Shown: positions 49,002 to 52,074, numbered from the stretch's first letter. The stretch is 64,000 nt of DNA from Escherichia coli (GCF_003334335.1 NZ_QOWQ01000011.1), one strand, 5' to 3'. Program-made: numbers and translations. Notes: generated from the letters alone by a model not told the origin.

Positions 49002-49426
49002 ATCCACCTCAATTAAAAATTGACCCTGTGAAAAATATGGTCGTTTTATAGGGTCGTCGTAAAAAAGTGACGACGGAAATAATGCGCGGCTATTTTAAAA
49101 ACGAAGGCGAGTCATTCACCAGATAAATAAATCCAGTAAATTTGATTTAGGGCAACAGCGGGTTGCCCCATATAGTCATTTGTCTGATTGACAGTGTAGT
49201 GCACGCAAAAGATTTAATCCTTTAGGCGTAATAAAAAATAATTTATCATGCTAATTATTTGATTTTGTTGTTTTTGCAGACTTATCAGCAAGAGGGAGTA
49301 TAACGCGATTATTCGCTCATTTTTCAGACATTTGCCATGCTTAAATGTGATGTCATCACGTATTAGCAAGGCCTTTCCCGTTATACTGCCAGCGTAAAGG
49401 ATAAGTCACATATTTCTGGAGGGGAT

Positions 49427-51085
49427 ATGATTCTTGAGCGCGTTGAAATTGTGGGTTTTCGCGGTATCAACCGTTTGTCGTTGATGCTGGAACAAAACAA
49501 CGTCCTGATTGGGGAGAACGCGTGGGGTAAATCCAGCTTGCTGGACGCCTTAACTCTGCTGCTATCGCCAGAATCAGATCTCTACCATTTTGAGCGCGAC
49601 GATTTCTGGTTCCCGCCGGGAGATATCAACGGGCGAGAACATCATCTGCATATTATTTTGACCTTCCGCGAATCGCTGCCAGGCCGACATCGGGTTCGCC
49701 GTTATCGGCCGCTGGAAGCGTGCTGGACGCCATGCACCGATGGCTATCACCGTATTTTTTATCGTCTGGAAGGGGAGAGTGCGGAAGACGGCAGCGTGAT
49801 GACACTGCGCAGTTTTCTCGATAAAGACGGACATCCGATTGATGTCGAGGATATTAACGATCAGGCACGCCATCTGGTGCGTTTAATGCCGGTGCTGCGC
49901 TTGCGTGATGCCCGTTTTATGCGCCGTATTCGTAACGGCACGGTGCCAAATGTCCCTAATGTGGAAGTCACCGCGCGCCAGCTCGATTTCCTCGCCCGTG
50001 AGTTATCCTCACATCCGCAAAATCTCTCTGATGGGCAGATTCGTCAGGGACTTTCCGCAATGGTACAGCTGCTTGAGCATTATTTCTCTGAGCAGGGGGC
50101 CGGACAGGCGCGATATCGTTTAATGCGGCGGCGAGCCAGCAATGAGCAACGAAGCTGGCGCTATCTGGATATCATCAACCGGATGATTGACCGACCTGGT
50201 GGGCGCTCGTATCGGGTTATTTTGCTCGGCCTATTTGCTACTTTGTTGCAGGCAAAAGGCACATTGCGACTGGATAAAGACGCCCGTCCATTGTTGCTGA
50301 TCGAAGATCCAGAAACCCGTTTACACCCCATTATGCTTTCAGTTGCCTGGCATCTGTTGAATCTTCTGCCATTGCAGCGCATTGCCACCACCAACTCGGG
50401 TGAGTTGCTTTCGTTAACGCCGGTAGAGCATGTTTGCCGACTGGTACGTGAGTCCTCGCGCGTTGCCGCCTGGCGTCTGGGGCCGAGTGGCTTGAGTACC
50501 GAAGATAGCCGACGCATATCCTTTCACATTCGTTTTAACCGTCCGTCATCGCTGTTTGCACGCTGCTGGTTGCTGGTGGAAGGGGAAACGGAAACCTGGG
50601 TTATCAATGAACTGGCGCGTCAGTGCGGACATCATTTTGATGCCGAAGGGATCAAGGTCATTGAGTTTGCCCAGTCCGGGCTAAAGCCACTGGTTAAATT
50701 TGCCCGCCGAATGGGGATTGAATGGCATGTACTGGTCGATGGCGATGAAGCAGGGAAGAAATATGCCGCTACGGTACGCAGCCTGTTGAATAACGATCGG
50801 GAAGCCGAACGAGAACATTTAACGGCGTTACCGGCGCTGGATATGGAACATTTTATGTATCGCCAGGGATTTTCCGATGTGTTCCACCGCATGGCGCAAA
50901 TCCCGGAAAATGTACCGATGAATCTACGCAAAATTATCTCGAAAGCGATCCATCGCTCTTCCAAACCCGATCTTGCCATTGAAGTGGCAATGGAGGCAGG
51001 ACGTCGTGGTGTGGACTCCGTACCGACGCTGCTGAAAAAAATGTTCTCACGCGTGCTGTGGCTGGCGCGCGGTCGCGCGGATTAA
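49427..51085 (+). CDS. ybjD: OLD-family protein: N-terminal ABC-like ATPase fused to C-terminal TOPRIM nuclease domain
   Basis: 552-aa ORF; Walker A GENAWGKSS (aa 29-37, nt 49511..49537), Walker-B-like LLLIEDPE, TOPRIM glutamate in LLVEGETE (nt 50576..50593) and DxD in VLVDGDEAG (nt 50738..50746). Confidence 0.9.
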   Translation: MILERVEIVGFRGINRLSLMLEQNNVLIGENAWGKSSLLDALTLLLSPESDLYHFERDDFWFPPGDINGREHHLHIILTFRESLPGRHRVRRYRPLEACWTPCTDGYHRIFYRLEGESAEDGSVMTLRSFLDKDGHPIDVEDINDQARHLVRLMPVLRLRDARFMRRIRNGTVPNVPNVEVTARQLDFLARELSSHPQNLSDGQIRQGLSAMVQLLEHYFSEQGAGQARYRLMRRRASNEQRSWRYLDIINRMIDRPGGRSYRVILLGLFATLLQAKGTLRLDKDARPLLLIEDPETRLHPIMLSVAWHLLNLLPLQRIATTNSGELLSLTPVEHVCRLVRESSRVAAWRLGPSGLSTEDSRRISFHIRFNRPSSLFARCWLLVEGETETWVINELARQCGHHFDAEGIKVIEFAQSGLKPLVKFARRMGIEWHVLVDGDEAGKKYAATVRSLLNNDREAEREHLTALPALDMEHFMYRQGFSDVFHRMAQIPENVPMNLRKIISKAIHRSSKPDLAIEVAMEAGRRGVDSVPTLLKKMFSRVLWLARGRAD

Positions 51086-52074
51086 CCGCGAAACATCGTG
51101 GCCATTTGTGGCTGAATAGCGTCGAGCATCTCATAGCGCCGACGGTATTCAGCCCGTTTTTTACTGGCGATTTCGGCAATCTCTTTTCGTGCTATCTGTG
51201 CTGGAAGGCGGTAATGGCGTTCAGCATCACATACGCCGCCAACCGATTCCCAGAAAGCGTTGTAATCAGCGTGGATCTTGCCTTCTTTATCGCGATAACG
51301 CAGGCTGCGGTAAATATGCGTTTCATTGCTGACGGCAATAATCTGCTCTACCTGCAAACGTTGGGCAAACAGACAGGCCGCTTCCATCACGAGGCGTTTG
51401 GGAAATAGCCCGTGGCAGGCTTTCGTCGCATTCTGGATTTCCTGATGTGGAATTTCCCATTTTGCGCCTTGCAGTCCGCCAATAAACATCGTTCTTTTCC
51501 CCTGATATTCACACAGGGTAAACGTGATCTCTGCCAGAGGAATACCTTCGCTGTTGCGGAACAGGATTGTGCTGTCACCTTCTTTATCCATTGAGATCAT
51601 CATGGTCAGCTCAAGCGTGAACTGCTCGCCGTTTTTGCCTTCCAGCTTCGCCAGTTGCAGCCCGGGGGTATTCAAATATAAGCTGAATTCTTCCGCCGAC
51701 ATACATTCGCGGAGTAACGCATAATGGTAACGTAACGCCTCCAGCAATTGCTTACGGCTAAGATTCGCCGCAAGGTAAGGGCGATGCAGACGCACAGGCA
51801 GTCGCGGCTGGCGCGTTAACAATACATTGAGATTAGGCCAGTGGGAAAGTTCGTTCATCCACTCAACGCTTAAACGCGGCATAATCAACGAGCGCAGCAA
51901 AAATTTCTGGCGAAAACTACGGCGATGCCAGAATTTACCCGGCCGACACTGTCCACGTGCCAGACTAAGAAAAAGTGACAGGCTGCTGAGAGATTCAGAT
52001 GGCGTAAAGGTCCGTTCAGTTAGCTGCGACATATTCATGAAATCAATGGTTATACATGGCGTCGATTTCACCAT
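51082..52074 (-). CDS. ybjX: VirK-like protein (DUF535)
   Basis: 330-aa ORF from ATG 52074; stop overlaps the ybjD stop in a shared TTAA; an internal Met (MSQLTERT...) is an alternative start. Confidence 0.8.
   Translation of the reverse strand: MVKSTPCITIDFMNMSQLTERTFTPSESLSSLSLFLSLARGQCRPGKFWHRRSFRQKFLLRSLIMPRLSVEWMNELSHWPNLNVLLTRQPRLPVRLHRPYLAANLSRKQLLEALRYHYALLRECMSAEEFSLYLNTPGLQLAKLEGKNGEQFTLELTMMISMDKEGDSTILFRNSEGIPLAEITFTLCEYQGKRTMFIGGLQGAKWEIPHQEIQNATKACHGLFPKRLVMEAACLFAQRLQVEQIIAVSNETHIYRSLRYRDKEGKIHADYNAFWESVGGVCDAERHYRLPAQIARKEIAEIASKKRAEYRRRYEMLDAIQPQMATMFRG

What the first reader, a model, noticed from the sequence alone, without database searches (positions are those of the whole stretch)
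49427..51085. YbjD is a stand-alone OLD-family ATPase-TOPRIM nuclease candidate with no partner gene
The 552-aa protein combines an N-terminal P-loop ATPase (GENAWGKSS) with a C-terminal TOPRIM signature (LLVEGETE plus VLVDGDEAG). That is the architecture of the phage P2 Old protein and of the ATPase/nuclease components of Gabija and PARIS defence systems. Here it is a single gene with no second component: aqpZ lies upstream divergent and ybjX (VirK-like, DUF535) lies convergent with overlapping stops. Class 1 stand-alone OLD proteins are biochemically poorly defined, so the target and physiological role are open, with anti-phage or anti-plasmid activity as one possibility.
Basis: partly seen in the sequence, partly recalled or inferred. 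Interest (0 to 1): 0.5.

Follow-up and report, generated by a model that had tools for sequence, protein, structure and literature searches.

The report
E. coli YbjD: known solitary OLD nuclease
The gene is E. coli ybjD, a single-gene ATPase-plus-nuclease of the OLD family that has already been described and tested in print, and it behaves in evolution like an ordinary conserved chromosomal gene rather than a mobile anti-phage gene.

Summary
Window 49427-51085 (+) is an intact 552-aa ORF, E. coli K-12 ybjD, with an N-terminal ABC-type ATPase (DUF2813/AAA_15; Walker A GENAWGKS) and a C-terminal OLD-type TOPRIM domain (E385/E389, D438xD440, D472xE474, K513). There is no partner gene. Schiltz 2019 used YbjD as the seed for the OLD classification and listed E. 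coli as Class 1. Atahualpa et al. 2026 ('oldB') ran the proposed experiments: the knockout has no phage phenotype; overexpression weakly inhibits a few BASEL phages; the TOPRIM domain is dispensable; K35A keeps the phenotype and is more toxic. What I add: ybjD is in 5425 of 5426 complete E. coli genomes, syntenic and intact across 80 Enterobacterales species, and absent from phages and true plasmids. It evolves like its housekeeping neighbours (dN 0.11, dN/dS about 0.06). The TOPRIM core is the most constrained segment, so the published TOPRIM-independent phenotype is probably not the selected function. Its C-terminal region is Class 2 (GajA)-like, yet no helicase neighbour was found in any examined locus. 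Novelty: already known. Interest: low to moderate.

The parts
49427..51085 (+). ybjD (proposed name oldB) coding sequence, 552 aa plus stop
   Evidence: ORF list; RefSeq annotation on identical DNA; Pfam DUF2813 + OLD-like_TOPRIM
49382..49387 (+). candidate -10 promoter element TATACT, conserved in most of the Enterobacterales upstream regions aligned
   Evidence: Alignment of 19 upstream regions; sequence. The consensus promoter scan did not flag it, so this is inferred only
49418..49424 (+). ribosome-binding site GGAGGGG
   Evidence: Sequence; GGAG conserved in the upstream alignment
49427..50551 (+). ABC-type ATPase region (residues 1-375, Pfam DUF2813), including a helical insert (about residues 100-280) that corresponds to the dimerisation domain of Ts OLD and GajA
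49511..49534 (+). Walker A / P-loop G29-E-N-A-W-G-K35-S36
   Evidence: G29 and E30 in 64/64 and K35 in 59/64 family members; K35 in 81/81 Enterobacterales orthologues. K35A phenotype reported in PMC13261556
50291..50329 (+). Walker B and D-loop, L289-LLIEDPETRLHP-301 (E293 = Ts OLD E276; H300 = Ts OLD H283)
   Evidence: Profile alignment; residue roles from PMC7049728; conservation
50387..50401 (+). H-loop position T321-T-N323-S-G325, where Asn replaces the ABC H-loop His
   Evidence: Aligns with THSP of Ts OLD (H310) and GajA. N in 42/64 family members and 81/81 Enterobacterales orthologues
50552..50806 (+). TOPRIM core (residues 376-460), the most constrained segment
   Evidence: PF20469 E 7.8e-16; dN 0.047 against 0.127 for the ATPase region
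50579..50593 (+). E385-G-E387-T-E389: TOPRIM glutamate (metal A) and second glutamate (metal B)
   Evidence: 64/64 conserved; equivalents are Bp OLD E400/E404 and P2 Old E398/E402
50738..50746 (+). DxD motif D438-G-D440
   Evidence: 63/64 and 64/64 conserved; aligned with the DED/DCD motif of Ts OLD and P2 Old
50807..51082 (+). C-terminal helical domain (residues 461-552) carrying D472xE474 (50840-50848) and K513 (50963-50965)

Best explanation
ybjD encodes a solitary OLD-family enzyme: an ABC-type ATPase fused to a two-metal TOPRIM nuclease. It has already been described (Class 1 OLD, proposed name OldB). The following molecular model is partly shown and partly inferred. (1) The protein probably oligomerises through the helical insert in its ATPase domain, as Ts OLD, GajA and P2 Old do (inferred). 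(2) ATP acts mainly as a restraining ligand rather than a fuel. The K35A mutant is more toxic yet still active (shown by others). The H-loop histidine needed for hydrolysis in Ts OLD is an asparagine here (shown here); slow hydrolysis is inferred from that. (3) When the restraint is released, the TOPRIM site (E385/D438/D440; E389/D472/E474; K513) cleaves nucleic acid. Whether the substrate is DNA or tRNA is unknown (inferred). The gene is monocistronic, constitutively expressed at a low level, and needs no neighbouring partner. In evolution it is a vertically inherited core gene of Enterobacterales, with solitary relatives in Vibrionaceae, Aeromonas, a Succinivibrio-like lineage, Motilimonas and at least one betaproteobacterium. 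Selection acts hardest on the nuclease core, so the selected function uses the nuclease. The published TOPRIM-independent overexpression effect is therefore probably a side effect of the ATPase/insert region. The physiological role is unsettled. My estimates are about 0.40 for a fixed, low-level defence or surveillance role, 0.35 for a housekeeping nucleic-acid-maintenance role, and 0.25 for something else.
Against: No biochemistry exists for YbjD, so nuclease activity, substrate, oligomeric state and the ATP effect are all inferred from homologues. The only phenotypes reported come from overexpression and are weak. TOPRIM point mutants and a TOPRIM deletion changed nothing, which could also mean the nuclease is inactive under the conditions tested. 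dS is near saturation (about 1.7), so the dN/dS values are rough; the dN comparisons are sound. The Asn-for-His H-loop change is common in Class 1 OLDs, and its kinetic consequence has not been tested. The helicase-absence test is a simple motif scan.
Confidence: 0.85

Rival explanations
1. YbjD is a classical stand-alone anti-phage defence gene. It senses infection through its ATPase domain, then cleaves phage DNA or host tRNA with its TOPRIM domain (abortive infection), like P2 Old or Vc OLD.
For: All characterised bacterial OLD proteins act in defence. Induced expression at a non-toxic level reduces plaquing of Bas18 and Bas20 and shrinks plaques of Bas64-68. The null knockout result is weak evidence, because the BASEL phages were isolated on a ybjD+ K-12 host and so were pre-selected to tolerate native YbjD.
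Against: The anti-phage phenotype does not need the TOPRIM domain or its catalytic residues, and it survives K35A. The knockout shows no change on 68 phages. Unlike P2 Old, YbjD is not lethal in a recBC-ts strain. The gene is core, syntenic, vertically inherited and under ordinary purifying selection with no sign of diversification, and it does not lie in a defence island. No phage or true plasmid carries it.
Confidence: 0.4
2. YbjD is a housekeeping nucleic-acid-maintenance nuclease that processes aberrant DNA structures or an RNA substrate. It would be the bacterial analogue of the archaeal OLD protein Cran1, or of ABC-ATPase/nuclease machines such as SbcCD. The phage effects would be overexpression side effects.
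For: The evolutionary pattern matches the flanking housekeeping genes. The TOPRIM core is the most constrained segment, yet it is irrelevant to the phage phenotype. Neighbours in distant taxa are housekeeping genes. Cran1 is a precedent: a vertically inherited OLD with a non-defence role. The ATPase head is structurally close to SMC, Rad50, RecF and RecN.
Against: No growth or stress phenotype is known. The gene is non-essential, as shown by the Keio knockout and by IS1 insertions tolerated in K-12 derivatives. No LexA box or other conserved operator lies upstream. No genetic link to any repair pathway has been reported.
Confidence: 0.35
3. YbjD is an orphaned Gabija GajA that lost GajB. It is either a decaying remnant, or it works in trans with a core SF1 helicase (UvrD, Rep or HelD).
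For: The best PADLOC hit is a GajA model (267 bits). GajA is the top structural match. The C-terminal region has the Class 2-type helical domain.
Against: That GajA model (PDLC00094) scores 250-364 bits on seven solitary DUF2813 relatives, so it is effectively a model of this solitary clade. No helicase neighbour was seen in 95 loci. Decay is excluded by intact ORFs and strong purifying selection. There is no evidence at all for helicase partnering in trans.
Confidence: 0.1
4. ybjD and the convergent, overlapping ybjX form a two-gene functional unit.
For: The two genes overlap by 4 nt at their stops. The pair is listed as a convergent excludon. ybjX is adjacent from E. coli to Yersinia.
Against: At least 13 Enterobacterales loci have ybjD followed directly by macA with no ybjX, Klebsiella aerogenes among them. 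ybjX evolves about four times faster (dN 0.456, dN/dS 0.26). The Vibrio, Salinivibrio and other distant loci examined show no ybjX-like neighbour.
Confidence: 0.03

Closest known systems
E. coli YbjD / OldB as published (Schiltz et al. 2019, PMC6755086; Atahualpa et al. 2026, PMC13261556)
   Same: It is the same gene and protein: b0876, 552 aa. The architecture, the solitary context and the Class 1 assignment are the same.
   Different: Nothing differs in identity. Those papers do not report the core-genome status, synteny, selection analysis, TOPRIM constraint, Class 2-like C-terminal domain or BASEL ascertainment bias described here.
Thermus scotoductus OLD (Class 1, PDB 6p74)
   Different: [quoted passage not shown] YbjD has Asn at that position and has the helical domain. 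Identity is about 20%.
Gabija GajA (Class 2 OLD; B. cereus GajA 8sm3/8u7i, B. pseudomallei OLD C-terminal region 6nk8)
   Different: No GajB helicase lies next to ybjD or any sampled relative. YbjD is a chromosomal core gene and not a mobile defence-island gene. True plasmid-borne OLD/GajA genes are only 24-31% identical over part of the protein.
Phage P2 Old (archetypal Class 1)
   Same: It is a homologous single-polypeptide ATPase-TOPRIM protein (hhalign probability 98%) encoded by a solitary gene.
   Different: Identity is 21-28%, and the proteins align only up to about residue 450. P2 Old is prophage-borne, lethal in recBC-deficient cells, needs both ATPase and nuclease activity, and cleaves tRNA. 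[quoted passage not shown]
Cran1, Sulfolobales OLD-family ATPase (bioRxiv 10.1101/2025.03.27.645713)
   Same: It is an OLD-family protein with intact active sites that is vertically inherited across a whole order, which is atypical for defence genes, and it has a helical insertion in the TOPRIM region.
   Different: Cran1 is archaeal, essential, lies in an operon with a membrane protein and has a shown cell-cycle role. YbjD is non-essential and has no known cellular phenotype.

Membership tests
OLD family (ABC ATPase + TOPRIM nuclease) | N-terminal ABC-type ATPase with Walker A GxxxxGK[ST] | tested here: met
   GENAWGKS at residues 29-36; AAA_15, AAA_21, SMC_N and DUF2813 hits; K35 in 59/64 family members and 81/81 orthologues
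OLD family (ABC ATPase + TOPRIM nuclease) | Walker B acidic residue and D-loop (hhhhE[DE]PE..LHP) | tested here: met
   LLLIEDPETRLHP at residues 289-301 aligns with Ts OLD E276 and H283 and with GajA IEEPEISLH; E293 60/64, H300 63/64
OLD family (ABC ATPase + TOPRIM nuclease) | H-loop histidine (Ts OLD H310, P2 Old H332) | tested here: not met
   The position is Asn (N323): 42/64 N and 10/64 H in the family, 81/81 N in Enterobacterales. Schiltz 2020 reports this substitution as frequent within Class 1 OLDs, so it does not exclude membership
OLD family (ABC ATPase + TOPRIM nuclease) | C-terminal TOPRIM with invariant Glu and DxD | tested here: met
   PF20469 E 7.8e-16; E385 64/64, D438 63/64, D440 64/64; structural matches
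OLD family (ABC ATPase + TOPRIM nuclease) | Second metal site and catalytic lysine (Bp OLD E404, T506/E508, K562; P2 Old E402, D541/E543, K550) | tested here: inconclusive
   E389, D472, E474 and K513 are invariant or nearly so, and the C-terminal region superposes on 6nk8. Residue-by-residue structural equivalence was not checked
OLD family (ABC ATPase + TOPRIM nuclease) | Metal-dependent nuclease and ATPase activity | not testable with these tools
   No biochemistry for YbjD was found in the literature searched
Class 1 OLD (context definition: Schiltz 2019, Dot 2023) | Solitary gene with no adjacent helicase, retron or AriA-type partner | tested here: met
   E. coli neighbourhood; Yersinia, Klebsiella, Vibrio and Salinivibrio; six distant relatives; 82 Enterobacterales loci; helicase motif scan
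Class 1 OLD (structural description: Schiltz 2020) | Shorter C-terminus that lacks the Class 2 helical domain | tested here: not met
Gabija (GajA + GajB) | GajA-type OLD protein | tested here: met
   PADLOC GajA PDLC00094, 6.8e-80. However, that model also scores 250-364 bits on solitary DUF2813 relatives
Gabija (GajA + GajB) | Adjacent UvrD/PcrA/Rep-like helicase GajB | tested here: not met
   None found in the window or in 95 loci
PARIS (AriA + AriB) | ATPase and TOPRIM encoded as two separate adjacent proteins | tested here: not met
   YbjD is a single fused polypeptide. The AriA model matches only residues 1-51
Retron-associated OLD (Class 3, Eco8) | Adjacent reverse transcriptase and msr/msd non-coding RNA | tested here: not met
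   No reverse transcriptase among the annotated neighbours. The NCBIfam retron_eff_Eco8 model scores 20.6 bits against a cut-off of 250
P2 Old-type abortive system | Lethality when RecBC is inactive; ATPase and nuclease both required | not testable with these tools
   The literature reports neither is met: YbjD is not lethal in the SK129 recBC-ts strain, and the TOPRIM domain is dispensable (PMC13261556)

The most novel reading that the evidence does not exclude
The DUF2813/YbjD clade is a non-mobile, vertically inherited bacterial OLD lineage. It is GajA-like in structure but lacks a helicase partner. Its selected function would be a housekeeping nuclease activity on cellular DNA or RNA, not phage defence, making it a bacterial counterpart of archaeal Cran1. 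The published anti-phage effect would then be an overexpression artefact of the ATPase domain.
Probability: 0.35. Interest if true: 0.6.

Novelty: already known. Interest (0 to 1): 0.25.

Why it matters
As stated, the finding adds nothing to the literature. YbjD has been recognised as a solitary OLD homologue since at least 2019, and the suggested experiments were published in 2026. What could matter is the mismatch documented here. The gene is treated as a defence candidate, yet it is a core, syntenic, slowly evolving gene. Its nuclease core is its most constrained part, while that same nuclease is dispensable for the only reported phenotype. This mismatch argues that the real function has not yet been observed. 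It also explains why a knockout screen with phages isolated on a ybjD+ host could not reveal it. Finally, it shows that context-based 'Class 1' labels hide a large chromosomal clade that is probably not counted in the published defence-system prevalence figure (0.45% of genomes); that last point is my inference.

Tried and rejected
1. SOS regulation: a LexA-box search (CTGT-N8-ACAG, one mismatch allowed) found no site in 49008-49426, and the window-wide count was at chance level.
2. Consensus promoter and terminator scan: nothing informative upstream of ybjD, and the terminator-like hits inside the gene have no support.
3. A conserved upstream operator: only a -10-like TATACT box and the RBS are conserved across genera.
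4. ybjX as a partner: rejected, because it is absent from at least 13 orthologous loci and evolves much faster.
5. A GajB partner in relatives: none in 95 loci by motif scan, Pfam-annotated neighbours or RefSeq annotation. The strong PADLOC 'GajA' hit is explained by model PDLC00094 covering the solitary DUF2813 clade.
6. Mobile origin: no full-length copy in 50,697 phage records. The full-length 'plasmid' hits are mislabelled chromosomes, chromids or chromosomal fragments, and true plasmid OLDs are only 24-31% identical over part of the protein.
7. Functional equivalence to P2 Old: rejected on sequence (alignable only to about residue 450) and on the published recBC-ts test.
8. Long (1000-1900 aa) relatives as helicase fusions: rejected. 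They are DUF2813 proteins with low-complexity insertions.
9. The DNA-repair papers that mention ybjD only use the aqpZ-ybjD intergenic region as an insertion site.
10. A literature search for 'DUF2813' returned nothing.

Full report
**Observation**

Window 49427-51085 (+) holds an intact 552-aa ORF with an ATG start, preceded by the ribosome-binding site GGAGGGG. The DNA is 100% identical to E. coli K-12 MG1655, where RefSeq annotates the same coordinates as ybjD, 'ATP-dependent endonuclease'.

The gene layout is as described. aqpZ is divergent upstream. ybjX is convergent downstream with a 4-nt overlap in which the two stop codons share two bases.

**Domain and fold tests**

- Pfam gives DUF2813 over residues 1-375 (E 3.5e-160), OLD-like_TOPRIM over 376-440 (E 7.8e-16), and AAA_15, AAA_21 and SMC_N matches at the P-loop.
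- PADLOC gives GajA models (best PDLC00094, 6.8e-80) and the Old model (1.9e-24). NCBIfam gives only sub-threshold P-loop matches.
- A profile built from 64 diverse family members (alignment A1) finds Ts OLD (6p74, 5e-21), GajA (1e-19), PtuA and Eco8 OLD among solved structures.
- An AlphaFold2 model built on that alignment is confident (pLDDT 85, pTM 0.83).

**Already published**

- Schiltz et al. 2019 used YbjD (b0876) as the seed query when defining OLD Class 1 and Class 2, and list E. coli among the solitary Class 1 genes.
ybjD is expressed. The Keio knockout shows no change on the 68 BASEL phages. Arabinose-induced YbjD reduces plaquing of Bas18 and Bas20 and shrinks plaques of Bas64-68.
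- In the same paper, mutating the three TOPRIM acidic residues or deleting the TOPRIM domain (construct 1-377) changes nothing, whereas deleting the ATPase domain abolishes the effect. K35A keeps the effect and is more toxic. Unlike P2 Old, YbjD is not lethal in a recBC-ts strain. The authors propose the name oldB.

The finding is therefore correct but already known.

**Active-site anatomy**

The profile alignment to Ts OLD and GajA, read with the residue roles given by Schiltz 2020, gives the following map.

| Residue(s) | Assigned role |
|---|---|
| K35 | P-loop |
| E293 | Walker B |
| H300 | D-loop |
| N323 | H-loop position |
| E385, D438, D440 | TOPRIM metal A |
| E389, D472, E474 | TOPRIM metal B |
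| K513 | catalytic lysine |

The metal B and lysine assignments rest on analogy and conservation, not on a residue-level superposition.

Across the 64 family members (29-91% identical), E385, E387, E389, D440, E474 and K513 are kept in 64/64, and D438 and D472 in 63/64. K35 is kept in 59/64 and E293 in 60/64.

The H-loop histidine, whose alanine substitution abolishes ATP hydrolysis in Ts OLD, is Asn in 42/64 family members and in all 81 Enterobacterales orthologues. Schiltz 2020 had already noted this substitution among Class 1 OLDs. Taken with the published K35A result, it fits ATP acting as a restraining ligand rather than a fuel. That reading is an inference.

**Class assignment**

The strong PADLOC 'GajA' hit does not imply a Gabija context. 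The same model scores 250-364 bits on seven solitary DUF2813 relatives.

**No partner gene**

- The E. coli neighbours are hcp, lysO, aqpZ, ybjX and macAB.
- Six distant relatives (30-45% identical), looked up on their contigs, all stand alone among housekeeping genes with no UvrD-type Pfam domain nearby.
- The Vibrio and Salinivibrio copies are also solitary.
- A motif scan for SF1 helicases found none in 95 loci. This is a crude test with no positive control.
- ybjX is not a partner. At least 13 orthologous loci go straight from ybjD to macA, and ybjX evolves about four times faster.

**Evolutionary behaviour (new here)**

- ybjD is present in 5425 of 5426 complete E. coli genomes at 95-100% identity.
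- A scan of one genome per species found at least 489 loci encoding a relative. The best 80 are full-length orthologues in distinct Enterobacterales species, from Escherichia to Pectobacterium, Brenneria and Serratia.
- The order hcp-lysO-(aqpZ)-ybjD-(ybjX)-macA-macB is kept throughout, Yersinia included.
- 80 of 82 ORFs are intact at 550-555 aa. One exception is truncated by a contig end, and one (L087) has an interrupted match that I did not resolve.
- Compared with E. coli, median dN is 0.109 and dN/dS about 0.06. That matches macA (0.116), macB (0.102) and lysO (0.10). dS is near saturation, so the ratios are rough.
- Pairwise YbjD distances track those of MacB, Hcp and MacA (Pearson 0.81-0.86), just as those genes track each other. 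GC content is native.
- No phage record carries a full-length copy. Full-length 'plasmid' hits are mislabelled chromosomes, chromids or chromosomal fragments, and true plasmid OLD/GajA genes are only 24-31% identical over part of the protein.
- More distant solitary relatives occur in Proteus, Aeromonas, Vibrionaceae, a Succinivibrio-like lineage, Motilimonas and the betaproteobacterium Chitinilyticum.

This is the pattern of a vertically inherited core gene, not of mobile defence cargo.

**Constraint by domain**

The TOPRIM core (residues 376-460) has dN 0.047, the lowest in the protein. The ATPase region has 0.127 and its helical insert 0.18. Selection therefore acts most strongly on the very domain that is dispensable for the published phenotype. 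I infer that the overexpression phenotype is not the selected function.

The null knockout result is also less informative than it looks. The BASEL phages were isolated and propagated on K-12 MG1655 delta-RM, a strain in which ybjD is not among the deleted loci. They were therefore pre-selected to grow in the presence of native YbjD.

**How it most likely works**

- Shown: the architecture, the intact and conserved two-metal TOPRIM site, the Walker A and B motifs, the H-loop Asn, the solitary monocistronic gene, and, from the literature, expression, the dependence of the phenotype on the ATPase domain and the hyper-toxicity of K35A.
- Inferred: oligomerisation through the ATPase insert, as in Ts OLD, GajA and P2 Old; ATP binding holding the nuclease off; and cleavage of a nucleic acid once released.
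- Substrate: open. Ts, Bp and Vc OLD cut or nick DNA, whereas P2 Old cleaves tRNA in vivo.
- Physiological role: I estimate about 0.40 for a fixed low-level defence or surveillance function, 0.35 for a housekeeping nucleic-acid-maintenance role (with the vertically inherited archaeal OLD protein Cran1 as precedent), and the remainder for other roles.
- Excluded: a decaying orphan, given the selection data.

**Verdict**

Interest is low to moderate. The residual value lies in the evolutionary argument that the true function, which depends on the nuclease, has not yet been seen, and in the experimental designs that could reveal it.

Noticed in passing
window 49427-51085, as seen in other genomes (NZ_CP011495.1 NCM3722, NZ_CP099590.1 WG1, CY598/CY706/CY708): Several K-12-derived laboratory strains carry an IS1A insertion that splits ybjD into two 'DUF2813 domain-containing protein' fragments. 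Loss of the gene is therefore tolerated in the laboratory.
   Followed up: no
window 51082-52038 (ybjX, minus strand): ybjX (VirK/YbjX family) evolves about four times faster than every neighbouring gene (dN 0.456, dN/dS 0.26). It is missing from at least 13 otherwise syntenic Enterobacterales loci. The ybjD-ybjX pair is catalogued as a convergent excludon.
   Followed up: partly
proteins P0150, P0163, P0170, P0175; loci L097/L098 392-4360: Some DUF2813 relatives are 1000-1900 aa long. They carry large low-complexity (Ala/Ser/Gln/Lys-rich) insertions in the ATPase insert and between the DIEHY and KSKPG motifs, and all catalytic motifs are retained. One lies near polA, as does the Succinivibrio-type locus L010.
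   Followed up: partly
window 49002-49426 (aqpZ-ybjD intergenic region): Across genera only a -10-like TATACT box (49382-49387) and the RBS are conserved upstream of ybjD. The region contains a GC-rich inverted repeat, GGGCAACAGCGGGTTGCCCC, at about 49150-49169. It is used as a neutral integration site in engineered strains.
   Followed up: partly
L087 8001-9658 (Citrobacter amalonaticus AUH_CA_2023_1): This is the only orthologue whose match is interrupted (1658 nt; best tblastn segment covers residues 110-524). It may be a frameshift pseudogene or a sequencing error.
   Followed up: no
L010/L011/L012 (Succinivibrio-like contigs), gene upstream of the DUF2813 gene: A gene with AAA-ATPase_like and PDDEXK_9 domains lies directly upstream, on the same strand as the 612-aa DUF2813 homologue, in three independent contigs. 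It could be coincidental or a lineage-specific association.
   Followed up: no
literature (PMC12392090, PMC13261556): The statement that Class 1 OLD proteins occur in only 0.45% of genomes (a DefenseFinder figure) is hard to reconcile with a solitary OLD gene present in essentially every E. coli genome and in at least 489 species-representative genomes. The YbjD clade is presumably not counted by that model.
   Followed up: partly
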